Positions 1-34,760 of a stretch of DNA of 64,000 nucleotides are shown here, in pieces (within the stretch, counting starts at the first letter, position 1; each line of letters opens with the position of its first letter). The notes beneath the pieces were generated by a model that ran no database searches, was not told the DNA's origin, and worked only from the letters and a program-made list of their open reading frames with translations. The DNA is from Scenedesmus sp. PABB004 (Eukaryota). The stretch spans positions 1,054,001-1,118,000 of the forward strand of contig JABVCE010000007.1 of NCBI GenBank assembly GCA_014905635.1. Direction: 5' to 3'. Both the position numbers and the translations under genes were made by a program.

Positions 1-3000
1 GAATTTAAAATCGGTGGGCTCTGGACCATACGTCCACTCACGATAGTGGCCAAGGCGCGCGGCGGGCAGGAAGCTGACTGGGCTGACTTTGTCGCGCCGG
101 TACCCAGCCACGTTTGCCCCGTCGCTCCAGGTGGGAAATATTTGGTAGTAATCAGAGATGTTGTACGCAGGAACCATGTAATCGCGGTTTATAGCGTTCC
201 CGTTGGCATCCACGTAGAACCCCTCACAGCCGTATGACCCCGTTCGGGTGTGGGCCATTCGGCCGTTCCCTAGGTCTGCTGCGTCAAGTGTATCAATGCA
301 GCCAAATGGCATAGCCCAAAAAGCCCAGCCTGGGTTGTAATAGGGCTTTGAGTCAACGCCAATGTAGCTGCTGCCATTGGCGTACGTAGAGGCATATGCA
401 GGGCCGGTGTTGTTGTTTTGCGAGGGGGTCACTATGTACGGAGCGTCGTACCGGACCAAAGACGCCCAGCGCGACTGGTTGCGCTTTTTATAACTGCCCC
501 AGTTGTCCCAAGTCTCAATGGACAAAACATCCACTTCCCACGTGGGGCGCAAGCTCTGCCACAGGTCTGCCACCCAAATGATTTGCTCGTCCATTACGTC
601 AGAGTCGTCCAATGATTTGTAGGGAACATAGTCCAACCCATATGGGTTTGATTTGGGTGATTGATCCCAATACTTCGCGTTGTATGTGGCAGAGATGAGC
701 GGATGACCAAGGAAGCTCCTGCAACGAATCAAGTGAGCGTGGCAGGCAGCGTACGTGAATTCCGCACGCGGCAAAGCTATTTTGGCGGCTGAGCTGCGCA
801 AACTCACATGTATGACAGTTTAGGAAGGCCAGTTATCCAAGTTAGCGGTATCGTGCCAAACAATTTGCCATTGCCAGACCAGTCCGTGAAGTCACTGCAT
901 TCGCGTTGCAAACGGAGGCGTGAGGTGAGGTGATTTTCATGGCGCAACGAGCGACCCCCAACCAACCACCCCAACCACGCACATAATCTCCAAGTTGTGC
1001 AGGGTAGACATATTCGTGTCAGGCTGCACTGTGCCCCAGGCAGCCGGCAGGGTTCCATACACAACTGCTGGCCAGCGGTCCGTTGGCGCAACACCAGCGG
1101 CTTGCAAGTGCGCTTTGAACGGAGCATTGCCTTGCTTGAAGAGCTCGTAGGTGCTGGGGTCCCTAAACAATACGCCCATAGACTGCTGAGGGGTGAAGGT
1201 AGAATTGTAGCCCAACGCGGTCAAGTTGAGCAAACCGGGCCACTCGGCAGTGGTACCATTGAACGGCATCACGGCTTGCTCTGATGCACGATCCTTCCAA
1301 CCCCACAGCACGTACCTCCCTGCATTCATGCTTTCAGGTACCATCGATGCATCACGCTCCCACTCCTCGGGCACGTCGGCGTCTTCCCAAACAATTGGAA
1401 ACGACAGGTTTCTTATAATTCTGCGTGCGGCACAGGCGCCGGCGAGCGAGGTGCCGGCGCGCGCACGCCGCCGCCGGCGCGGCGCGCGCTGCGGCTGCAG
1501 CCGCGAGCGGCCGCCTCGCTGGCCAGGCGCCGGCGAGCGAGGTGCCGGCGCGCGCACGCCGCCGCCCGCGCGGCGCGCGCTGCGGCTGCAGCCGCGAGCG
1601 GCCGCCTCGCTGGCCAGGCGCCGGCGAGCGAGGTGCCGGCGCGCGCAGGCCGCCGCCCGCGCGGCGCGCGCTGTGGCTGCAGCCGCGAGTGGCCGCCTCG
1701 CTGTCCAGGCGCCGGCGAGCGAGGTGCCGGCGCGCGCAGGCCGCCGCCCGCGCGGCGCGCGCTGCGGCTGCAGCCGCGAGCGGCCGCCTCGCTGGCCAGG
1801 CGCCGGCGAGCGAGGTGCCGGCGCGCGCACGCCGCCGCCCGCGCGGCGCGCGCTGCGGCTGCAGCCGCGAGCGGCCGCCTCGCTGGCCAGGCGCCGGCGA
1901 GCGAGGTGCCGGCGCGCGCAGGCCGCCGCCCGCGCGGCGCGCGCTGCGGCTGCAGCCGCGAGCGGCCGCTTCGCTGGCCAGGCGCCGGCGAGCGAGGTGC
2001 CGGCGCGCGCACGCCGCCGCCCGCGCGGCGCGCGCTGCGGCTGCAGCGGACGGCTCCTTTTCATTTGGGACCCACCTTATTTGTTTCACCCCTGCCCGCC
2101 ACTTTGTCACGGTAGATGTGCAGTCCTTCATAAACTGGTCATATGCGACAGCATGTTTGACTTGTCCCGGAATATTGAACCATGTGGAGACAGAGGCATT
2201 GGCTGCAAAGTATGTGCCCCAAATACGCTCACAAGGGTTGTCAAAATCGGGCAGGCTCTGTGTGTCACAGTTGGAATTGTTGTCGCCACGGCAGATTGGT
2301 CCAACATGAATGCTTTTGTTGAGATAGCTGGGTGCAGCATAGAATACATCAGCACCGGCACCTTTCTGCATAGCATAGCCAGGAGCCGTATCCCAATCAA
2401 TAATAGTCTCGTTGCCCAACCGATCGTCACTGTGATCAATGAATATGTGGTTGTTGTAGACCCTGGGGTGTTGAGTTCCATCCGTGAGTGCATGTTCGAT
2501 CGCTGCAGCCCAGGCAGCAAGGCGCTGAAATCCCTCCCTCCCCCCACCCACTCACAAGCCGCCGCATTGATGGCAGTTATTATCACATTGTTGGTGCGGA
2601 CGCTTTTTGTCAATGGTTTCTTGCAGCAAGTAGCACCTGTCAAACAGCACGTCAGTCCGAGTTCCAAACAGATGAAAGTACCAGTTCTCTTTTTGGCAAT
2701 TTGTGTGGCCTGTAATGTTACTAGTGATATTGCACTGCACTGTGCGAGGTGTCTTGCTGTAGTTGAAGTACCCGCCGTAGTCCCAGCCTGATGAGTGAAT
2801 AGTGGACTTATCAATCATTGTCCGGCGCCAGTAGTCGTAGTAGACGGGAGGGATAAAACGGTCTTGCAGCGGGTTGGAGAGGTTGGCAGGTGGACGTATG
2901 TAATTCTGTTTGGTCATGGCGCCAATGCAGTTCTCCTCAGTATAGAGGGGCAGAAGCTGCAGCTCATCAGCCAATCGCATGTAGCGTCCCTTGTTACTGC

Positions 3001-6000
3001 TTGGTTGGCTGCACTTGAATGGAAGGCGCGTCATGTTCCATGCGACGTGCACTTGCAGCACCTTGCGCCCGTCAGCGGTTGTGTGCACAGCAGTTGGATC
3101 CCAACCGCCGTGCCAAACGGCTGCTTGTTGAAACTGCACTCGCTTGTCTTCCATGTAAGGGCTGTACTCGCCTCTGTGCCGAAAACGCCAATCTGTGTTG
3201 GCGGTGACGTTGACATACCACTCGCTGTTGTTGCGACCAGCTGCGGGGATTGAACAACGGTGGGAACAGGGGGCAACAGTACCTGTCCGGCAGTTTCCCG
3301 ACCACTCACAACACGCAAGCATTATAGCTGCTCACCCATAAGGTGAATGATGAATGGCGTGTTGTCGTTGGACCATGCACACATGCCCACCTGTTGGTGC
3401 AAGTTTCTATGGGGCAGGGTTGCAGTGGGGCGTTTGTAAGATAGCAGCATATTGCTAACAACTGCTAGATGCCCATCCCCCACTTACAAGTATCTGAGCT
3501 TCGATAGAAGGCCCCAAGAACCAGGGATGCTGCCTTGAAGGCTGCTTGGAGCTGCACGCTCTGCGTAGCCCAGCAATTTGTCCTCCACACCAAAGTCGCT
3601 GCAAGCGGAAGCACGGATGTCACAAGTCTGGCGCGGCCAGCTTGCGTGCGGCAACCGCTTGCGGGCATTGCAGCCGTTTGCGGGGACTTACATTAATTCG
3701 ACGTTGGGGAAAACTTCTGCCCACTCGGGAGGCAGCGTTCCCTGGACAGGAGATAACCATTTGTTGTATGTATTCCAAGGCGTGAAGTCGGTTGCAGGAA
3801 TGTCACTCCTGCTGCTGTAGCCCCTGTCTTCTCCCTGGTACGCTCCACCCATGATGGGGACCTGTGAAGCAGTTGCATTCATCCTGCGCGCAGGCACGGG
3901 TGAGGCAGCGTAAAAGGTTGCAAGTGGAAGATGTACGTCGGCGATGAACATGCGATGGCCGATAGTTCAGCAAGCACAGCTGCTGCAGCCGCGAGCGGCC
4001 GCCTCGCTGGCCAGGCGCCGGCGAGCGAGGTGCCGGCGCGCGCACGCTGCCGCCCGCGCGGCGCGCGCTGCGGCTGCAGCCGCGAGCGGCCGCCTCGCTG
4101 GCCAGGCGCCGGCGAGCGAGGTGCCGGCGCGCGCAGGCCGCCGCCCGCGCGGCGCGCGCTGTGGCTGCAGCCGCGAGCGGCCGCCTCGCTGGCCAGGCGC
4201 CGGCGAGCGAGGTGCCGGCGCGCGCACGCCGCCGCCCGCGCGGCGCGCGCTGCGGCTGCAGCCGCGAGCGGCCGCCTCGCTGGCCAGGCGCCGGCGAGCG
4301 AGGTGCCGGCGCGCGCACGCCGCCGCCCGCGCGGCGCGCGCTGTGGCTGCAGCCGCGAGCGGCCGCCTCGCTGGCCAGGCGCCGGCGAGCGAGGTGCCGG
4401 CGCGCGCACGCCGCCGCCCGCGCGGCGCGCGCTGCGGCTGCAGCCGCGAGCGGCCGCCTCGCTGGCCAGGCGCCGGCGAGCGAGGTGCCGGCGCGCGCAG
4501 GCCGCCGCCCGCGCGGCGCGCGCTGCGGCTGCAGCCGCGAGCGGCCACCTCGCTGGCCAGGCGCCGGCGAGCGAGGTGCCGGCGCGCGCACGCCGCCGCC
4601 CGAGCGGCGCGCGCTGCGGCTGCAGCCGCGAGCGGCCGCCTCGCTGGCCAGGCGCCGGCGAGCGAGGTGCCGGCGCGCGCACGCCGCCGCCCGAGCGGCG
4701 CGCGCTGCGGCTGCAGCCGCGAGCGGCCGCCTCGCTGGCCAGGCGCCGGCGAGCGAGGTGCCGGCGCGCGCACGCCGCCGCCCGCGCGGCGCGCGCTGCG
4801 GCTGCAGCCGCGAGCGGCCGCCTCGCTGGCCAGGCGCCGGCGAGCGAGGTGCCGGCGCGCGCAGGCCGCCGCCCGCGCGGCGCGCGCTGCGGCTGCAGCC
4901 GCGAGCGGCCGCCTCGCTGGCCAGGCGCCGGCGAGCGAGGTGCCGGCGCGCGCACGCCGCCGCCCGCGCGGCGCGCGCTGTGGCTGCAGCCGCGAGCGGC
5001 CGCCTCGCTGGCCAGGCGCCGGCGAGCGAGGTGCCGGCGCGCGCACGCCGCCGCCCGCGCGGCGCGCGCTGCGGCTGCAGCCGCGAGCGGCCGCCTCGCT
5101 GGCCAGGCGCCGGCGAGCGAGGTGCCGGCGCGCGCACGCCGCCGCCCGCGCGGCGCGCGCTGTGGCTGCAGCCGCGAGCGGCCGCCTCGCTGTCCAGGCG
5201 CCGGCGAGCGAGGTGCCGGCGCGCGCAGGCCGCCGCCCGCGCGGCGCGCGCTGCGGCTGCAGCCGCGAGCGGCCGCCTCGCTGGCCAGGCGCCGGCGAGC
5301 GAGGTGCCGGCGCGCGCACGCCGCCGCCCGAGCGGCGCGCGCTGCGGCTGCAGCCGCGAGCGGCCGCCTCGCTGGCCAGGCGCCGGCGAGCGAGGTGCCG
5401 ACGCGCGCACGCCGCCGCCCGAGCGGCGCGCGCTGCGGCTGCAGCCGCGAGCGGCCGCCTCGCTGGCCAGGCGCCGGCGAGCGAGGTGCCAGCGCGCGCA
5501 CGCCGCCGCCCGCGCGGTGCGCGCTGCGGCTGCAGCCGCGAGTGGCCGCCTCGCTGGCCAGGCGCCGGCGAGCGAGGTGCCGGCGCGCGCACGCCGCCGC
5601 CCGAGCGGCGCGCGCTGCGGCTGCAGCCGCGAGTGGCCGCCTCGCTGTCCAGGCGCCGGCGAGCGAGGTGCCGGCGCGCGCACGCCGCCGCCCGAGCGGC
5701 GCGCGCTGCGGCTGCAGCCGCGAGCGGCCGCCTCGCTGGCCAGGCGCCGGCGAGCGAGGTGCCGGCGCGCGCACGCCGCCGCCCGAGCGGCGCGCGCTGC
5801 GGCTGCAGCCGCGAGCGGCCGCCTCGCTGGCCAGGCGCCGGCGAGCGAGGTGCCGACGCGCGCACGCCGCCGCCCGAGCGGCGCGCGCTGCGGCTGCAGC
5901 CGCGAGCGGCCGCCTCGCTGGCCAGGCGCCGGCGAGCGAGGTGCCAGCGCGCGCACGCCGCCGCCCGAGCGGCGCGCGCTGCGGCTGCAGCCGCGAGCGG

Positions 6001-8644
6001 CCGCCTCGCTGGCCAGGCGCCGGCGAGCGAGGTGCCGACGCGCGCACGCCGCCGCCCGAGCGGCGCGCGCTGCGGCTGCAGCCGCGAGCGGCCGCCTCGC
6101 TGGCCAGGCGCCGGCGAGCGAGGTGCCAGCGCGCGCACGCCGCCGCCCGCGGGGTGCGCGCTGCGGCTGGTGCCAGCGCACATGGTTTCACGCACCTGAT
6201 TGTCTTGATACTTTGTCCAAACTTAAGCCGCTTAGACTCGCACAGAGAGTATGGCATTGGTAGTTGTCCAGTAGCAGCTAGCCTTGAACAGGCGTACTTA
6301 AAGTCATTGAGACTCTGCGGCTGTCGACCTAGGAGAGCAGCATAGTCGGTTGCAGATATAATTCCATTTGTTGCCCAATCACGCCGTGTGTCTTGAAAGT
6401 CAACAAACGCAATGTCCGTAAAGCTCCTGTGGCGTGTTTAGTGGTGAGCAACAGTTGAGGTGCACATTTGTGTGCTTAAGCCTAGGTTAAGCAGCACTCA
6501 CAGCTCTTCAAGCTCTTCTAAGAACACCAACTGATCTACAAGCTTGGCAAAAGGCATCGATCCCGGGAACGTGCAGGGAAGTGTGTATGTGTCGTCATAA
6601 CCCTGCCCACTGGTGGTCTGGTCATCCATGCGCTTGTCCACCTGGCCTGGATATCTGAAACAACGGCCCTCCACCTCCCAATGTCTGAGCTTGTTGTCTG
6701 TGGCGTTGCCGTTGGTGGCGTTTGGCGCGTACAGTCCGCGGCCAGTGGACCACAACAGCCCTTCACTGGCACATGGGCTCATACGCCAGCTGTGAGCATG
6801 CCAAGCGTAAGCGTTGCTGGGGAGTGCGTCAGCCCTGCCAAGCTTATCTGTGCGGTGGTAACCCACATCATAATGCCTTATGCGTCTGCGAGCACGGGTG
6901 CGAGGTTCAGGCCTCGCAAGCGCATGATATCAGCTAGGGGCTTCATGCCCCAGCAGGACTCACATGTACGGCACCCGGTCATCCTGCTCTGCATCAACGT
7001 TAGCAGGGGCGCTCCATGTGCGTTCGCTGTCTGGTGTACTCGTGTTGTCTTTCCAACAACTGATCATGGGGCAGGTGGGACAGCCAGGACAAAACTCGCC
7101 ACATGACGGGTATGAGAGCCCTGCAGTTGGCCCAGCGGCAATTGTGGGCAGGCGCAGCAACTGCAAGTGCCAGCCAGCGGCGCCGGCCCACAATTGCCGT
7201 AAGCTCACCATAAACTTCTTTTGGGCTGGAGCTGTTGGTCAGTGTGCCGAGCTGGTCGGTGTCATTATAGCCGTTGTTGAAGTCGTCAAGGCAGCGTGGA
7301 CCTGAACCGGCTCCCATCTCGGGGCTGAAACAACGGAAAGTGAACGGGCACTGCAGATGACGGTTGGCAACCACACTGCAATTGGCAGTTACGTTGTGCA
7401 TGCTGCTGTAGTTGGTGTGGCATGCGATGGTTGTGTCGTTGTTGCTGAGGTGCGTAACATAGAGTGTGAAGTTGCCCCAAACGCGGTAGGTGGTGTTGTA
7501 TTGTTGTGTTTGGTTGAATGGCTGGCTTGCAAAGTAGAAGTTTTTGCTGGCTGAAGCGCCATCTGCACCGTACGTGTCAAAGAATGACGCGGTTTGGGGC
7601 CAAGCTGGTATGCTATAGCTGCCTGCCTCGCGGGTGATTGAAGTAAACTCTGCTCGCTTGCTGCCCATAGCCCAGAACTCGCCAGCAGTGCCGTTGGTGA
7701 TGTTGATCTCCTTGGTCACCAGGTTGGTCGCCCAACCGTCAGTGATGTTGTATTGTAGAATATGACGCGTGGAACCAAGCAACTCCCAAGCAGATGGCCA
7801 TCCAGTTGTGTTGGGCCAGCGAGGCAGCACATTTGCGGAAGGGTTGCTGCCTGACCAGGTCTGCACTTGAGGTTGTGGAGATGTTGGATGCTCACACTCT
7901 GGCACCTGCAGTGTCGGCAATGGCGGCCGTTTTGCGGCAGCACCTCAGGCAAGCCCGCCTAGCTGCAGCTACTGCCCCCGCAGCTGCCGCTGCTGCGCCG
8001 CTGCCACCACCAGCTGCCGCCGCTGCCACCACCAGCTGCCGCTGCTGCCGCTGGCGCCGCTTGCGCAGCGCCGCCTCTGCCGCACTTGGTTAGGGCAGTT
8101 GAATACACAGGGATTGTTGGGCCGCTTGTTGCACCACCAAGTATAGTGCCTGTCAACTTCTGCGCTGCAGTTGCCAATGAGCGGCGCACTGTCGTTGAAT
8201 GCAGTGACGTTCCAGCAGGCCTTGTCATCACGGAACCTGCTGTCAAACTGGTCCAGACCGTAATCGTGCATGTAGACAGCAAATGAGCCAATGGTACGGC
8301 ACACCCGGCTGGCGCGATTGTCTGTCCTTGGGCGCAGCGTGGAGCGATCAGGCAGGGTGCCAGAGCTGTCAACGGCCCCAAAAAAATGCATCAGTGCAAC
8401 ATCTGCGGGAGTGCGGCATCGTCGGCGGGGCGTCAGTCTGCTGACAGCATGCCCATGTGAGCAGAAGATAAAGTGCTGTGAAAATCGCCCTGCGCTCACA
8501 TCTGTAGAGGTGCTCGGTCGGCTGCTGCGCGTCGACTTTTGACATGTACGCACAGGTCACTCCAGGCGCAGAGCAGCACACCAGCGCCCCCAGAAACACG
8601 ATAGCGATGCTCCACGGCCGCAGCCGTGCCTCAGAGGCGCGCAT
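1..8644 (-). CDS. Giant secreted/surface leucine-rich-repeat (plant-type LRR, GP46/receptor-like) protein with very large inserts between LRRs; 3' end outside window (>=1540 aa)
   Basis: Manual splicing gives one open frame over exons 8644-8500, 8402-8086, 7905-7209, 7120-6964, 6885-6502, 6426-6196, 3883-3692, 3598-3488, 3406-3336, 3240-2556, 2462-2076, 1420-983, 894-808, 718-1 (4620 nt; all 13 introns GT-AG). Signal peptide MRASEARLRPWSIAIVFLGALVCCSA. LRR-type motifs GTLPPEW..VELIDF, GSIPGSWGLLSKLRYLNL, GTLPAAW..LEIIDF, GTIPLTW..LPKLSYMSF. Many N-x-S/T sequons and Cys clusters. Confidence 0.8.
1433..2047. repeat. 91-bp GC-rich tandem satellite, ~6.8 copies, in intron 2075-1421 of the LRR gene
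   Basis: CTGCAG recurs at 1495, 1586, 1677, 1768, 1859, 1950, 2041 (period 91). Unit gcggctgcagccgcgagcggccgcctcgctggccaggcgccggcgagcgaggtgccggcgcgcgcacgccgccgcccgcgcggcgcgcgct. Confidence 0.97.
3982..6169. repeat. Same 91-bp satellite, 24 copies, in intron 6195-3884 of the LRR gene
   Basis: CTGCAG from 3983 to 6076 in 91-bp steps (checked at 4438, 5348, 6076). Array bounded by GCTG at 3982-3985 and 6166-6169. Confidence 0.97.
7136..7199. repeat. 14-bp perfect inverted repeat spanning most of an 88-nt intron
   Basis: cggcaattgtgggc (7136-7149) and gcccacaattgccg (7186-7199) inside intron 7208-7121. Confidence 0.8.
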
Positions 8645-9051
8645 CTGGCCTTACGTGGCTGGCATGGCGGGCAGCAAAATTCTCGGGCTGCAGTGCCCGA
8701 TGTTGTGAGACGGCGTGCGCAGGTTCGCCTCTCCGGCGCAGATGTGCGGCTTGGTGGCATGTCGGCGAGGATCGGTGCGGAAACGCCCGTTGCTGCCTTT
8801 GACCGAAACAGTGTCCCTTCGTGGATTCGTGCGACAGCTGTGCGCTCGGCTCTGGCTGCACTCTCTCGACCCGCCCAGCAGCTCGCAGTCGCTTTTCTGA
8901 TGCGTGCGTGCCGGCACGTGACCCCGCTGGCTTGGCGCCGCCAGCCCGCGCATTGCTGCTGCCAGGCTGGCGCCGCGCGCCTGCCCAGGCCCGTGCGGGC
9001 GAGCAGCTCGCTGTGCCGGAGAGCGAGCGGCAGCGCGATGACGAGGATGTG

Positions 9052-9056
9052 TTACA
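9052..9056 (-). terminator. Putative chlorophyte poly(A) signal TGTAA for the aldolase
   Basis: TTACA on + strand, ~370 nt downstream of the aldolase stop. Confidence 0.45.
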
Positions 9057-9428
9057 CTGGCGGCACGCTGGGGCGGCGCCCCGCTACCAGCACCAGCGCC
9101 CGCGGCGGCGGGCGCGGCGTCAGGCGTGGCGGCTGGCGACCGTGGCTGGCCTAGCAAACGCGCTGGGCATGCACCGTCCACCATGCAAAAGCTCCCTTTT
9201 GAACGCAGGGGTGGGGGCGCGCCGGAGCGGGGCAGCATGAGCGCCACGCTGTGTTCGGACTGGCTGTGCGGGCAGCAGAAAGGGTGTCATGTCGCCAACA
9301 GAGCAGCCACATTGCCCGCGTCGCGTTCAAGGCAGTCGTGCTGGCTCCGCACCGCAACAACGCTCTCTGTTGCATTCAAGCGCGTGTGTGCTGGCCCGGC
9401 AGCCAGCTCTCCCTACATTGTCGCCACG

Positions 9429-11257
9429 TCACGCCCGCGGCGGGCGGTGGTCGCCCTCGCCCGGCTGCGGCGAGTACTCGCCGCGCGCCGCCGCGCTGGC
9501 CTTGGCCAGCTCCTGCAGGTACAGCGCCTCCATCTCCGGCAGCTTCAGCGAGCCCTGGCACAGCGCAAAGAGCGGCATCTGCGCGCGGCCGCGAGCGCAG
9601 CGGCACCGCGTGAGCGGCAGCGTCGCGCGGCGCCGCATGCCAGCGCCGCAACGGGCCCGCGCGCCACAGCCGCGGCCGAGGCTGGCCCAACCCGCGCCTC
9701 GCCCGTCGCCGTTTGCCACACGGCACGGCACGCACGCGCCACGCTGCCTTACCTGCAGCGCCGCCGACCAGCTGAACGAGAGGTTGACAGGGAACGTGCC
9801 CTTCTTCTGGTTGAGCGCACTCAGCCGAGCGCAAGCGTCACCCAGGCTCTGCCCGCCGGACAAGAAGTTGGCGCTGCGCACCGCCACGGGCATCACGCGG
9901 CGGAAGACGTCGATGTTGGCCTGCGCCGCCGCGCAGCAGCGCAGGGAAGAGGAGGGGTTCAGAAGGAGGTGACGCGCGGGCACGGCGGCGTGCAACGCAG
10001 CAGGGGGAACCCCGTCCAGGGCGCCCACGCAGGGCTGGGCTCGGGCGCGCCGCCGCCGCGCTGTCCTACCTGCGCAATCTCGTCCACGGTGTAAGCCACG
10101 GGGCAGGCCTTGCCGGGGTTGACCTGCGGCCGGGGTTGAACGGCGGGCGCAGCGGCGCTGCTGTGCGTGCAGCCGCGAGTGGGCTGCGCACCCGCGGGCG
10201 CGATGCTGCAGCCAGGTCGGGAGCGACAAAGACCTAGCTTTCAAGCTGCTAAACCCTCTCAAGCCCGCGCGCACCAGGTTGCTCTTGAGGACGACGCCCT
10301 CCATGAAGACGCCATGCTCCAGCAGCGCCCTGCGTGCGGCGGCGTGCAGCGGGGTGCGAGGCGCACAGCGCAGCACCTGCAGCGGCGCCCTGGCTCGCTG
10401 GGGCGCCTCGCTGCTGCACGGCGGGGCGCCTCGCTGCTGGCGCCCAGGCCCTGGGGGAGCCACGCACAAGCGGCGCAGGCGCCACCCAGGCCCCACCACC
10501 CGCTGCCGCCGGGCGCGCTTGGCGCGCCAGCGCCCGCGCCCGCCGACCACCGACCGCGGTGCCTGGCGAGGCGCACCGGTAGAGGACGGACTGAATTTTG
10601 GTGTTGATGGCCACCGCAGACTCCAGCGTGTGCGTGCCGGCCATGGAGACGTCGGGCTCGACAATCGGCACCAGGCCCACGTCCTGTCCCGAGTGCGTGC
10701 GTGGTGGTGTGAACGGTCAGCCAGGCGCGCGCGCGAGCCCAGCGCCGCCGCAGGTGTCGTGTCCCCGGTGGCGGCGCCGCCCAGCGCGGCCAGGCAGCCC
10801 GCATGCCCGCGAGCCGCGCAGCCAGCGCACGCGTGCCATGCTCCCCCAAACCCTGAGCCCACAGCGTCACGCCCGCTGCCAGCACCCACCTGGCAGATGA
10901 GCGCGTAGCGCGCCAGGTCTTGCATGTTGGCTTCAATCACAAAGTCGCTCGGCTGGCCGTTTGCCTCGTCGATGGCCAGCGGGCTGCGCCACTTGGCAAA
11001 CACCGCGCCGGCGGCCTTGTACTCAGCGAGCCGCGCCGCGAGCGAGTCGAGGCCCTGCGCCGCGCGGCGGCGGCAGGCGCGCCCCCCACGCAGCAGGCGG
11101 CGGCCGTGACCACGCGCAGCGCGGGCCCGGCGCGGTGCTGGCGGGGGAGCCTCGCCCCGCCCTGCCCGCGCGGGGGCTGCGCGGGCGCGCCTGCATGGTC
11201 GTCGACCCGCGCTGACCGGGCAGGGCGTAGACCTTGAGGTGGGGCTTCACGCCTGGC

Positions 11258-11290
<33 letters not shown>

Positions 11291-12352
11291 CGGCAGCGGC
11301 GGCAGCGGCGGCGCGTGAGCAGGCGCGGCGTTGGCGGCGGCCGCGGCGGCAGCGTGCGAGCGGGCGCAGCGGCTGCAGGAGCGCGCCCGGCACGCTGCCG
11401 GCTGCCCGTCTGCCACCCGCCCGCCCGCCTCGCTCGGCGCGGCGCGGCGCCGGCCCTCAGCGCAGCTCGTCCTCGGGCTCGGCTCGGCGCCGCCCAGGTC
11501 GGCTCACCGGGCAGGATGCCGAGCGCGTGCAGGCGCTCGGGGAACAGCGGCGTGCCCTCGCTGCTGGAGCGCTGGTAGAGGGTCTCCGGGTCCAGGATGG
11601 CAGCGCACAGGTACTGCACGGGAGGCCGGGCGGGCAGGGAAGGTGGGCCGGGCCGGCCGCGCGCCCGGGGGGCCGGCAGGGCGGGGGTTGTGTTGGAGCG
11701 GCGCGCACCTGGTTGGCGCTGGGCGCCTCAAACAGCATCTGCCGGTACGCACGGCGGTTCTGCGGGCGCAGCGGTGGGTGCGTCGCCGCCGCACTCCGAG
11801 GCCCCCGGCGCGCGCGCGCGCCCGCGGCCGTCCCGCGCCGGGGGCGTGCCGCGTGGCCGCAAGCGGCGGCCCCTGCCGCGGCCGCACCTCCTCGCTGTTC
11901 TCGATGCCATACTTGGCAAAGCGGTCGCCGATGGTGCCGGGGCCCTCGTCGCACGCGGTGATGCCCTTGCCGCGCTGCGCGATGTGCTCCGCGACGCCCT
12001 CGAGCTCCGCCTTGCGCGCCTTGCTCAGGTGCGCGCCGTTGTGGCAGCTGCGGGGCGCGCCGCGGCGGCGAGGGGCTCACGGGCCGCGCAGCCCGGCGCC
12101 AGCGCGCCGCGCAGGCCGGCGCGCAGCGCGCCCGCACCTGTGGAAGAAGGGCGCGGCGGCGGCGGCCCGCGCGCGCACGGCGACGCGTGCAGGTCGCGCG
12201 GCGCACGTGCGCTGCGGCGAGGGCAGCGGCGGGCAGCGCGGTGAGGGCGGTGGCGGCCGCTGCGCGCGGCGGCACCGGCGCCGGTGGCACCGGCGGTGGC
12301 TGCGCGCCTCAGCCCACACCTGAGCGCTGAAAGACCTGGCCTGAAGCTGCAT
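9429..12352 (-). CDS. FBA: Divergent class I fructose-bisphosphate aldolase-like protein with plastid transit peptide (multi-exon)
   Basis: Spliced motifs KGITACDEGPGTIGDRF, NRRAYRQMLF, AILDPETLYQ, FAKWR, LARYALICQ, GLVPIVEPD, EGVVLKSNLV (Schiff-base Lys), FLSGGQS, LSFSWSAALQ. N-terminus MQLQARSFSAQRTCAARPARVAVRA. Confidence 0.88.
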
Positions 12353-12978: not shown

Positions 12979-19312
<6,334 letters not shown>

Positions 19313-27473: not shown

Positions 27474-28197
27474 CAGATCGCGCACTGAAAGTTGCTGGGC
27501 GCGAGTGGGCATCGTGCCCCGCCTCGTCCTCCGCCGCCTCCAGCGCGCCCGTCATGACGGCGCCGCGCTCCCCCGCGTGCTCTCGTGCTCCCCCGGGGCG
27601 CCCCTCGGTCCGCGCGCGTCGGGCTGCCTGGTCGTGTGTGGCGTGTGCTCGTGCGTGGGCGTGCCTGGCTCGTCTCGGTGGCTGGGATTGCTCGCACTGG
27701 TGCGTCTCGGCGGCCGCGCGGGCGCTTGGCGTTGCGGCGCCTCACGAATCTGCTGCGGGGCGGGTGCGCTTTAACGTCTGTCACTCGCGCCCGGCCGCCG
27801 CGACGCGCCTCTGGGCCGCGGCGAGCCCCTCGTCCCTCCCCGCGCACAGCCGCCGCCCACTGGCGGGCGCGTTCGGCCTGGCGGGCACGCCAGCGCCCGC
27901 CGGCTGGGGCCGCGCCCTCGCGGCCGACCTGCACCCCACGCGCGCCCCCTCAGCAGGCTTCTCACTCATCAGACGCCAGCCGTGCGGAGCTGCGCCGCGA
28001 GACGCAGGCGGCGGCGCCGCCTCGGCTGCGCGGCGGCACCGAGCCACGCGGGCGCCGATCAGACGGCAAACCGCACGCCCGCGCGGCCGGCTGGCTGCTC
28101 CTGCTCCTGCAGCTGCCCCGCCGCCGCCTCGGCCGGCCGCGGTGCGGCCGGCCAGCGCGGAGCAGCCTCGGCGGGCCAGGGCGCTGCCAGCCAGCGC
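27474..28197. repeat. Left arm of a ~725-bp inverted duplication (partner 34036-34760)
   Basis: Reverse complement matches 34036-34760 with about 4 substitutions and one 1-nt deletion by eye. Confidence 0.95.
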
Positions 28198-34035: not shown

Positions 34036-34760
34036 GCGCTGGCTGGCAGCGCCCTGGCCCGCCGAGGCTGCTCCGCGCTGGCCGGCCGCACCGCGGCCGG
34101 CCGAGGCGGCGGCGGGGCAGCTGCAGGAGCAGGAGCAGCCAGCCGGCCGCGCGGGCGTGCGGTTTGCCGTCTGATCGGCGCCCGCGTGGCTCGGTGCCGC
34201 CGCGCAGCCGAGGCGGCGCCGCCGCCTGCGTCTCGCGGCGCAGCTCCGCACGGCTGGCGTCTGATGAGTGAGAAGCCTGCTGATGGGGCGCGCGTGGGGT
34301 GCAGGTCGGCCGCGAGGGCGCGGCCCCAGCCGGCGGGCGCTGGCGTGCCCGCCAGGCCGAACGCGCCCGCCAGTGGGCGGCAGCTGTGCGCGGGGAGGGA
34401 CGAGGGGCTCGCCGCGGCCCAGAGGCGCGTCGCGGCGGCCGGGCGCGAGTGACAGACGTTAAAGCGCACCCGCCCCGCAGCAGATTCGTGAGGCGCCGCG
34501 ACGCCAAGCGCCCGCGCGGCCGCCGAGACGCACCAGTGCGAGCAATCCCAGCCACCGAGACGAGCCAGGCACGCCCACGCACGAGCACACGCCACACACG
34601 ACCAGGCAGCCCGACGCGCGCGGACCGAGGGGCGCCCCGGGGGAGCACGAGAGCACGCGGGGGAGCGCGGCGCCGTCATGACGGGCGCGCTGGAGGCGGC
34701 GGAGGGCGAGGCGGGGCACGATGCCCACCTCGCGCCCAGCAACTTTCAGTGCGCGATCTG
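34036..34760. repeat. Right arm of the inverted duplication
   Basis: Starts at the base after the SPP stop codon and ends inside RING exon 1 (..CAIC). Confidence 0.95.

What the first reader, a model, noticed from the sequence alone, without database searches (positions are those of the whole stretch)
1..8644. Giant exon-per-repeat LRR surface protein with huge hypervariable-looking inserts
Seen: LxxLxL strands (VPYIRI, LEELSF, IKTIRM, VELIDF, LRYLNL, VKQIRI, LEIIDF, LSYMSF) are each split by a phase-2 intron at position 4 or 5. The following GxxPxxW turn is separated from the strand by anything from a few to over 100 residues of Trp/Tyr/Asn/Cys-rich insert. A three-LRR cassette (xxIR | ..GTLPxxW..ExI | DF..GxIPxxW..KLxY |) occurs twice, in exons 7-9 and 12-14. 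Established: same-phase exon-per-LRR structure permits exon shuffling, and LRR 'island' inserts bind ligands in plant receptors. Inference: an undescribed modular recognition or adhesion receptor that could diversify by exon skipping or shuffling.
Basis: partly seen in the sequence, partly recalled or inferred. Interest (0 to 1): 0.72.

Follow-up and report, generated by a model that had tools for sequence, protein, structure and literature searches.

The report
Green-algal agglutinin-like adhesion receptor gene
This is the front half of a large green-algal cell-surface protein built like the mating adhesion proteins of Chlamydomonas, and its unusually AT-rich DNA hints, without proving it, that only one mating type carries the gene.

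Summary
The observation largely holds: a minus-strand gene has 8 LRR-type strands, each cut by a phase-2 intron at position 4 or 5, with 10-120 residues before the turn, and a duplicated three-strand cassette. But the window shows only half the gene. Extended into the genome it is one 19-exon, 2,960-aa frame: signal peptide, LRR head, Ser-Pro shaft (15 PPSPX), two Ig-like domains, multi-pass membrane tail. Tail and head both match proteins labelled SAD1/minus agglutinin in volvocine algae. A tree places it in a separate clade (strict SAD1 orthology rejected), so it is an agglutinin-family relative. Exon-shuffling diversification is poorly supported: two genes found, unequal exons, the same intron register in the paralogue. 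Two unexplained features: the gene is the only AT-rich island in 523 kb (GC4 0.55 against 0.94-0.97), bracketed by 1.7-kb inverted repeats, as expected of a mating-type-limited gene; and one 91-bp minisatellite fills the two equivalent introns of the duplicated cassette, so recombination between them would delete or duplicate it in frame. Expression, fold of this protein and function are untested.

The parts
8500..8644 (-). Exon 1: ATG and signal peptide
   Evidence: Hydrophobic segment 13-31, GTGAG donor, phase 1
6964..8402 (-). Exons 2-4 (8402-8086, 7905-7209, 7120-6964): ~390-aa Cys- and sequon-rich N-terminal cap ending in the first half of LRR strand 1
   Evidence: Model; 17 NxS/T sequons in residues 31-435; homologues P0029/P0078 have a ~190-aa Cys-rich region before strand 1. 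Reading it as an expanded LRR N-cap is inference from recalled consensus
6196..6885 (-). Exons 5-6 (6885-6502, 6426-6196): LRR 1 and 2 with 105- and 50-aa inserts and degenerate turns; end in first half of strand 3
   Evidence: strands correspond by inspection to strands 1-2 of P0029/P0078
3982..6169 (.). Intron 6: 24 copies of a 91-bp, 87% GC minisatellite (intron 6195-3884, phase 2, strand position 5)
3488..3883 (-). Exons 7-8 (3883-3692, 3598-3488): first copy of the terminal LRR cassette (GTLPPEW, GSIPGSW turns)
   Evidence: head HMM of three homologues hits residues 724-754, 9.2 bits
2076..3406 (-). Exons 9-11 (3406-3336, 3240-2556, 2462-2076): 374-aa non-LRR segment between the cassettes; ends in first half of strand 6
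   Evidence: no Pfam match; 11 sequons
1433..2047 (.). Intron 11: 6.8 copies of the same 91-bp minisatellite (intron 2075-1421, phase 2, strand position 5)
   Evidence: 97.6% identity to intron-6 units, shared variants
808..1420 (-). Exons 12-13 (1420-983, 894-808): second copy of the cassette, with a 120-aa insert and the family-type 10-residue loop DxxGxGxLxG
   Evidence: Head HMM hit 1242-1298, 24.1 bits, best of 200 shuffles 1.4 bits; same loop length in P0029, P0078, P0069
1..718 (-). Start of exon 14: end of strand 8 and a ~270-aa post-LRR domain. Beyond the window (L002, G000:C67:1052081 down to 1049293) follow the Ser-Pro shaft, two Ig-like domains and the membrane tail in exons 14-19
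   Evidence: Big_12 on exon 15, E 4e-7, above cut-off; shaft 485 aa, 42% Pro, 15 PPSPX
8773..10431 (.). One arm of a 1,675-bp inverted repeat (3' part of an aldolase gene); the other arm starts ~150 bp past the stop codon (L002 5041-3376)
   Evidence: 97.1% identity; aldolase PF00274 on neighbouring exons

Best explanation
An agglutinin-family (SAG1/SAD1-like) surface receptor of a GC-rich chlorophyte, most likely used for gamete recognition and adhesion. Shown: gene model, domain order, homology of head and tail to SAD1-labelled proteins, internal duplication. Inferred: the protein is secreted into the membrane; a short plant-type LRR stack (5 strands in relatives, 8 here through duplication of the last three) serves as a scaffold whose looped-out inserts form the binding surface; the hydroxyproline-type Ser-Pro shaft holds the head away from the membrane; the Ig plus ~9-helix tail anchors it and may signal on binding. 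The phase-2 introns are an old, fixed feature of this head. The low GC and flanking inverted repeats suggest long absence of recombination, as for mating-type-limited genes.
For: One 2,960-aa frame over 19 exons, all GT-AG. Tail profile finds 76 representatives; of 20 looked up, named ones include 'SAD1 protein' (Gonium, E 7.6e-9) and 'Minus agglutinin' (Edaphochlamys 3.2e-13; Volvox africanus 1.8e-4). Independently, a head HMM from P0029, P0078 and the V. africanus protein hits both cassettes (35 bits total against <=1.4 in 200 shuffles), with a shared 4-residue loop insertion relative to plant LRR receptors. P0029 has the same order: signal, insert-rich LRR head, Pro shaft, Ig, membrane tail. 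Shaft has 15 PPSPX, the motif reported for SAG1/SAD1 (PMC8777248, PMC11785195, passages). The genome has HAP2 and IFT46. GC4 0.55 is near MID 0.526 and FUS1 0.396 (10.1101/565275, passages), while HAP2 (GC3 0.92-0.94) and the paralogue (GC4 0.94-0.97) are host-like. SAD1 is mating-type-linked in volvocines (PMC8894339, passage).
Against: Strict SAD1 orthology is rejected (AU p 5e-40; group named after seeing the tree; one 156-column block); the gene sits with its paralogue and unnamed sequences in a separate clade (98/93). The family also occurs in Caulerpa and Ulva, so it need not be sexual everywhere. The SAD1 labels are database names; C. reinhardtii SAD1/SAG1 were not among the named hits and were not compared. 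Neighbours are housekeeping genes with normal GC; none of 4 RWP-RK matches is on this contig or AT-rich. In C. reinhardtii SAD1 is shared by both mating types and recombines (PMC3757049, passages), so low GC is not expected from SAD1 kinship alone. The fold of a homologous head was low confidence (pLDDT 36).
Confidence: 0.57

Rival explanations
1. Same family and architecture, but a vegetative adhesion or wall-sensing receptor (colony cohesion, attachment, wall integrity); low GC reflects acquisition from a lower-GC green alga or methylation-driven decay.
For: Separate clade from the SAD1-labelled proteins; relatives in ulvophytes; the host-GC paralogue on C6 carries a different stalk (Cys-rich, Ig-like and EGF-like repeats, by inspection); CpG observed/expected 0.75 against 1.18 in the paralogue; HGT is reported in Scenedesmaceae (PMC13315243, passages).
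Against: The only characterised relatives are gamete adhesins; splice positions in head and tail match the native paralogue, and most introns are 72-97 nt, which fits a resident gene; the shaft is PPSPX-type.
Confidence: 0.27
2. One reading: an immune-like receptor that generates a repertoire by skipping or shuffling same-phase LRR exons, as in brown-algal ROCO or Tetrahymena LRR genes.
For: Every join between phase-2 introns is in frame and stop-free. The cassette was duplicated once. Identical minisatellites in introns 6 and 11 could drive in-frame loss or gain of exons 7-11. Precedents exist (PMC11378527, PMC6564038, passages).
Against: Exons are 87-438 nt, not uniform 72 or 90 bp; no DNA similarity between cassette exons (best 12-nt hit, E 1.8); exon 12 and exon 14 queries find only themselves in the genome; two family genes found (lower bound); strand order and intron register are conserved in the paralogue; skipping exon 6, 7 or 12 shifts the strand by one residue (read).
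Confidence: 0.09
3. A recently silenced or decaying gene: the rearrangement that made the inverted arms left only ~130 bp of its own 5' flank, and AT drift, a long branch and intronic repeat growth mark relaxed selection.
For: ATG lies 129 bp from the repeat arm; long branch 0.62 against 0.2 for the paralogue; a frameshifted 3' fragment copy lies 26 kb away.
Against: 2,960 codons without a stop and 18 of 18 canonical introns; GC4 has fallen from ~0.95 to 0.55 while the frame stayed open, which needs long selection.
Confidence: 0.07

Closest known systems
Chlamydomonas/volvocine sexual agglutinins SAD1 (minus) and SAG1 (plus)
   Same: Signal peptide, globular N-terminal part, PPSPX shaft, multi-pass membrane C-terminus; sequence matches of tail and LRR cassette to SAD1-labelled proteins.
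   Different: Separate clade; head of ~1,550 aa with 8 strands and a duplicated cassette, against 5 strands in P0029/P0078 and 3 in the possibly truncated V. africanus model; much shorter cytoplasmic loop; AT-rich island. Expression and location unknown.
Plant-specific LRR receptor ectodomains (GSO1, TDR, ERL1); island-domain receptors (recalled: BRI1, PSKR)
   Same: LxxLxL strand and GxIP turn; head profile matches GSO1 at E 5e-8.
   Different: Few repeats, most with inserts rather than one island; Asn at position 9 in 1 of 8 strands; multi-pass tail rather than single helix plus kinase.
Exon-per-LRR arrays of brown-algal ROCO genes (72 bp) and Tetrahymena LRR genes (90 bp)
   Same: Phase-2 introns at the repeat (PMC11378527, PMC6564038, passages).
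   Different: No uniform exon length, no DNA-level similarity between exons, two genes rather than large families.
PF06011 'TRP' proteins (fungal Pkd2/Flc type) and trypanosome DGF-1 C-terminus
   Same: Ig-like domain sitting before a ~9-helix membrane domain (model of homologue; Pkd2 description in 10.1101/2022.08.11.503631, passages); ESM feature hits 0.90-0.91; 10 of 40 family rows match PF06011 at E<=0.05.
   Different: This gene's own exons do not match PF06011; best family score seen is under the cut-off; huge ectodomain and a large cytoplasmic loop; channel activity unknown.

Membership tests
SAG1/SAD1 sexual agglutinins | Signal peptide, PPSPX-containing Pro-rich shaft, multi-pass membrane C-terminus | tested here: met
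   485-aa shaft, 42% Pro, 15 PPSPX; 6 hydrophobic segments over threshold after the shaft
SAG1/SAD1 sexual agglutinins | Sequence homology of head and tail to SAD1-labelled proteins | tested here: met
   tail, E 3e-13 to 2e-4; head, 35 bits against <=1.4; labels are database names
SAD1 (strict orthologue) | One clade with volvocine SAD1 to the exclusion of other family members | tested here: not met
   AU p 5e-40 on 156 columns; group named after the tree was seen
SAG1/SAD1 sexual agglutinins | Direct match to C. reinhardtii SAD1 or SAG1 | not tested
SAG1/SAD1 sexual agglutinins | Gamete- and mating-type-specific expression; ciliary location; cleavage into agglutinin and membrane parts | not testable with these tools
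   No RNA holder listed; an RR(I/L)L motif in the tail of this gene and several relatives is only a lead
SAG1/SAD1 sexual agglutinins | Linkage to the mating-type locus | tested here: inconclusive
   AT-rich island with inverted arms, but normal flanks, housekeeping neighbours and no RWP-RK on the contig
Plant-specific LRR domain | Repeated LxxLxL strand and GxIP turn | tested here: met
   8 strands, 4 clear and 2 degenerate turns; profile to plant LRR receptors E 5e-8; ESM LRR_1 clusters 0.93 for the homologue head
Plant-specific LRR domain | Asn ladder at position 9 and Pfam LRR match | tested here: not met
   Asn in 1 of 8 strands; 0 of 14 window exon pieces match (single exons cut every strand, which lowers sensitivity)
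Plant-specific LRR domain | Solenoid fold with looped-out inserts | tested here: inconclusive
   Homologue P0029 head: pLDDT 36, strands at all 5 predicted places; Foldseek best ERL1, E 0.61. This protein's spliced head was not folded
Exon-shuffling LRR repertoires (ROCO, Tetrahymena) | Phase-2 introns at repeats | tested here: met
Exon-shuffling LRR repertoires (ROCO, Tetrahymena) | Uniform exon length and many similar exons or genes | tested here: not met
   87-438 nt; no DNA similarity; two genes
Exon-shuffling LRR repertoires (ROCO, Tetrahymena) | Alternative splicing and positive selection | not testable with these tools
   No reads or alleles available
PF06011 TRP (Pkd2/Flc type) | Pfam match above cut-off | tested here: inconclusive
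   None for this gene's exons; 10 of 40 family rows at E<=0.05, best 6.8e-6, 25.6 bits against cut-off 28.5
PF06011 TRP (Pkd2/Flc type) | Ig-like domain followed by about nine membrane helices | tested here: met
   In the model of homologue P0018; Ig fold Z 9. Structural matches of the helical part were middling and mixed
PF06011 TRP (Pkd2/Flc type) | Ion-channel activity | not testable with these tools
   Needs electrophysiology or complementation

The most novel reading that the evidence does not exclude
The 14-kb AT-rich, inversion-bracketed island is a mating-type-limited agglutinin gene and marks a very small sex-determining or sex-linked region in a non-volvocine chlorophyte, a group for which (if it is Sphaeropleales) mating-type loci are reported as unidentified; recombination between its in-register intronic minisatellites switches the head between 5 and 8 or more LRR strands and so changes mate specificity; and the agglutinin tail is a Pkd2/Flc-type membrane module that turns adhesion into a signal.
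Probability: 0.15. Interest if true: 0.85.

Novelty: new variant of a known kind. Interest (0 to 1): 0.55.

Why it matters
Gamete adhesins are characterised in Chlamydomonas only. A relative outside that clade gives a direct handle on cryptic sex in another green-algal lineage, where flagellate gametes are rarely seen (PMC13315243, passages). The AT-rich island gives a one-PCR test for a sex-linked region; PMC8894339 (2022, passage) states that Sphaeropleales mating-type loci had not been identified. The comparison also suggests that the SAD1-type head is an insert-laden LRR and the tail a PF06011-like module, which bears on how agglutinins bind and signal; I did not find either point in the held library, but the primary paper (Ferris 2005) was not held.

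Tried and rejected
Word-based homologue searches with exon 19 (509-2,000 aa proteins) and exon 14 residues 1-265 (1,295-3,695 aa) found nothing; weak evidence. Pfam on 20 exon pieces gave only Big_12 above cut-off. No RNA holder was listed for window 6200-8644, so no reads were laid. The fold of the P0029 head (5-row alignment in which window exon 12 was misaligned) was low confidence and Foldseek gave no match at E<=0.001. The tail model gave no Foldseek match at E<=0.001; VIA rows for the helical part (Hrd1 Z 8.6, rhodopsin phosphodiesterase 7.1, GABA-B 6.9) do not stand out, so 'adhesion GPCR' is neither shown nor excluded. 'Low GC is general to gamete genes' rejected: HAP2 GC3 0.92-0.94. 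'A broad low-GC mating locus' rejected: 514 of 523 1-kb bins are >=0.66. A weak third paralogue on C8 (E 0.33) was not supported. The minisatellite as a dispersed element: other matches were partial and <=79% identical, 40 of 182 candidates scored. A beta-helix reading of exons 10-11 rests on recalled motifs only and was not tested. Earlier scan findings: none. PMC548829 not held. No supplements were read; gene tables in supplements of algal genome papers may already list such homologues.

Full report
Gene model. The window is G000:C67:1054001-1118000. Reading the minus strand gave 14 exons from ATG 8644 to the window edge, with GT-AG at all 13 introns and no stop in 1,540 codons (one search was a first pass with boundary slips). 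Fetching the continuation extended it to 19 exons and 2,960 codons, again all GT-AG and stop-free; the donor of intron 18 has an in-phase alternative. Order: signal peptide (13-31); ~400-aa cap; LRR region 436-1303; post-LRR domain; Ser-Pro shaft of 485 aa, 42% Pro, 15 PPSPX; two Ig-like domains (Big_12 on exon 15, E 4e-7; the first is by likeness to relatives); membrane tail with 6 segments over the hydropathy threshold. No cDNA supports the model.

Observation. Eight of the 9 phase-2 introns among introns 1-13 fall at position 4 or 5 of a hydrophobic-x-x-hydrophobic-x-hydrophobic pattern, against 3.2% expected per intron; 0 of 4 other introns do. Strand-to-turn distances are 105, 50, 46, 19, none, 120, 10, none. 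Four turns are GxxPxxW, two degenerate. The cassette is duplicated (32% over 72 columns). Inserts do not differ in composition from the rest of the ectodomain, and 3 of 6 lack Cys. No Pfam LRR model matched single exons. LRR consensus positions are a small part of the protein, so the title overstates the repeat character.

What it is related to. The genome holds one paralogue on C6 (49% in exon 19; 60% in exon 16) and a frameshifted 3' fragment 26 kb away. A two-sequence profile of the last membrane exon found 76 representatives. I looked up 20 of the 76, chosen mostly for length: 12 carried a source name or genome id, among them Gonium 'SAD1 protein', two 'Minus agglutinin' entries, a Gonium 'TRP C-terminal domain' protein, other volvocine, Sanguina, Caulerpa and Ulva proteins; the strongest hits looked up (P0001, P0003, P0018) are unnamed. 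P0029, an unnamed full-length hit, and its relative P0078 from Chlamydomonas sp. UWO 241 have an insert-rich N-terminal head. An HMM of these two heads and the V. africanus 'minus agglutinin' head hits both cassettes of this protein, 35 bits in all, best of 200 shuffles 1.4 bits. All four share a 10-residue strand-to-turn loop, DxxGxGxLxG, four residues longer than in plant LRR receptors, which the head profile matches at E 5e-8 (that alignment included two exons of this gene). ESM features of the P0078 head point to LRR_1 clusters at 0.93. P0029 and P0078 have five strands by hand anchoring; this protein has those five plus a second copy of the last three. Outside the cassette the head alignments are weak and rest on inspection.

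Membership. In a tree of the last membrane block (61 of 80 matched rows; 19 dropped for short coverage, Caulerpa among them; 156 columns) both own genes group with unnamed sequences (98/93) and the volvocine proteins group apart (98/92). Forcing this gene into the SAD1-labelled clade is rejected (AU p 5e-40, group named after the tree was seen). So it is built like an agglutinin and belongs to the same wider family, but is not a one-to-one SAD1 orthologue. That P0028 and P0033 are SAG1-like is recalled, not shown by a call. SAG1 and SAD1 are multi-pass gamete adhesins whose binding raises cAMP (PMC8777248, 10.1101/2021.09.03.458889, PMC8835621, PMC11603280: passages); SAG1 is cut into an agglutinin and a membrane part (PMC4362204, passages).

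Structure. AlphaFold of the P0029 head was poor (pLDDT 36) but put strands at all five predicted places; Foldseek ranked plant LRR receptors first, none significant. The model of P0018's tail had a confident Ig domain and nine long helices; the Ig fold matched at Z 9, the helical part was inconclusive. Ten of 40 alignment rows match PF06011 weakly, and ESM gave DGF-1_C/TRP clusters at 0.90-0.91 for this gene's exon 19. Fission-yeast Pkd2 is predicted as Ig plus nine helices (10.1101/2022.08.11.503631, passages); that Pkd2 is a PF06011 protein is recalled. A channel role is a hypothesis.

Exon shuffling. Phase-2 exon-per-LRR genes are known from brown algae and Tetrahymena, with uniform 72- and 90-bp exons (PMC11378527, PMC6564038, passages). 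Here exons are 87-438 nt, the two cassettes share no DNA similarity, and the C6 paralogue has phase-2 introns at positions 4, 4, 5, 4 of its first four strands, as this gene does. The register is old and fixed. All joins between phase-2 introns are in frame, but only joins between same-position introns keep the strand (read). One real route to change exists: introns 6 and 11, the two position-5 introns, carry the same 91-bp minisatellite. Among 23 and 5 full units, identity between arrays (97.6%) equals that within (97.7, 98.0%), 11 of 115 cross pairs are identical and four variants occur in both. The arrays therefore shared sequence long after the exons diverged. Crossing over between them would remove or repeat exons 7-11; the exon 6-12 join is in frame and leaves a five-strand head like that of P0029. 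Whether this happens is unknown.

Composition and context. Of 523 1-kb bins on C67 (mean GC 0.79, sd 0.04), 9 are under 0.66: 8 in this gene, 1 in its fragment copy. GC4 is 0.55, against 0.94-0.97 in two paralogue exons; HAP2 and IFT46 exons have GC3 0.92-0.99. Introns without the repeat are 0.49-0.79, so this is not only codon choice. The gene lies between inverted 1,675-bp arms, 97% identical, from the 3' part of the adjacent aldolase gene, the pattern recalled for inversions with staggered breaks. Mating-type-limited MID and FUS1 have GC4 0.526 and 0.396 (10.1101/565275, passages). Against a mating locus: flanks are normal, neighbours are housekeeping genes (41 chosen exon pieces scanned), four RWP-RK matches lie on other contigs with GC3 0.95-0.97, and C. 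reinhardtii SAD1 is shared and recombining (PMC3757049, passages). Transfer from a lower-GC alga or methylation decay (CpG ratio 0.75 against 1.18) remain open.

Print status. Ten library searches (listings seen) showed no paper on agglutinin homologues in Sphaeropleales, on LRRs in SAD1, or on SAG1 with TRP; PMC13315243 has no 'agglutin' in its main text. The library lacks most subscription papers, including Ferris 2005, and no supplement was read.

Verdict. A real, intact gene; a new variant of the agglutinin type; gamete adhesion the likeliest job (0.57). The exon-phase story is ordinary; the AT-rich island and the paired intronic minisatellites are what deserve follow-up. Interest 0.55.

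Noticed in passing
G000:C6:108340-124360, minus strand (L009-L011): Paralogue with host-like GC: LRR head with one long insert, then Cys-rich repeats, tandemly duplicated near-identical Ig-like exon blocks and EGF-like exons (by inspection), and the same Ig-Ig-membrane tail. Could be the partner agglutinin.
   Followed up: partly
window 3982-6169 and 1433-2047: Each 91-bp unit, read on the gene's strand, holds a donor-like GTGCG and an acceptor-like CTGCAG, so the arrays offer many cryptic splice sites.
   Followed up: no
L012/L004, G000:C67:1022741-1023971: Inverted 1.2-kb copy (97.6%) of the gene's 3' end and flank, with a frameshifting gap.
   Followed up: partly
G000:C67:998821-999899 and 1046442-1047451; 892448-894005 and 941935-943494; window 27474-28197 and 34036-34760: Several other recent 0.6-1.6-kb duplications (94-99%), some inverted, in this part of C67.
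   Followed up: no
window 9470-12046, minus strand: Class I fructose-bisphosphate aldolase gene (PF00274) whose 3' part is the duplicated arm; its 3' flank now abuts the start of the agglutinin-like gene.
   Followed up: partly
window 13254-13721: Perfect (GCC)n tract of about 157 copies inside or next to a predicted exon of a PAN/EGF surface-protein gene (13253-19163, minus strand).
   Followed up: no
G000:C76:98050-99557 and C5:303452-304369: HAP2/GCS1 and IFT46 genes are present, so gamete fusion and cilia genes are retained.
   Followed up: partly
L002 7165-6791 (exon 17): RR(I/L)L motifs in a sequon-bearing loop of the tail, also in 6 of 9 relatives checked at about the same place; possible processing site.
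   Followed up: partly
window 19909-63680: Housekeeping neighbours by Pfam: S53 propeptide protein, cytochrome P450, DHHC, M16 peptidase, UPF0220, separase, RRM protein, AAA_12 helicase; Tra1 and Sec24 lie on the other side (L003, L004, L013).
   Followed up: partly
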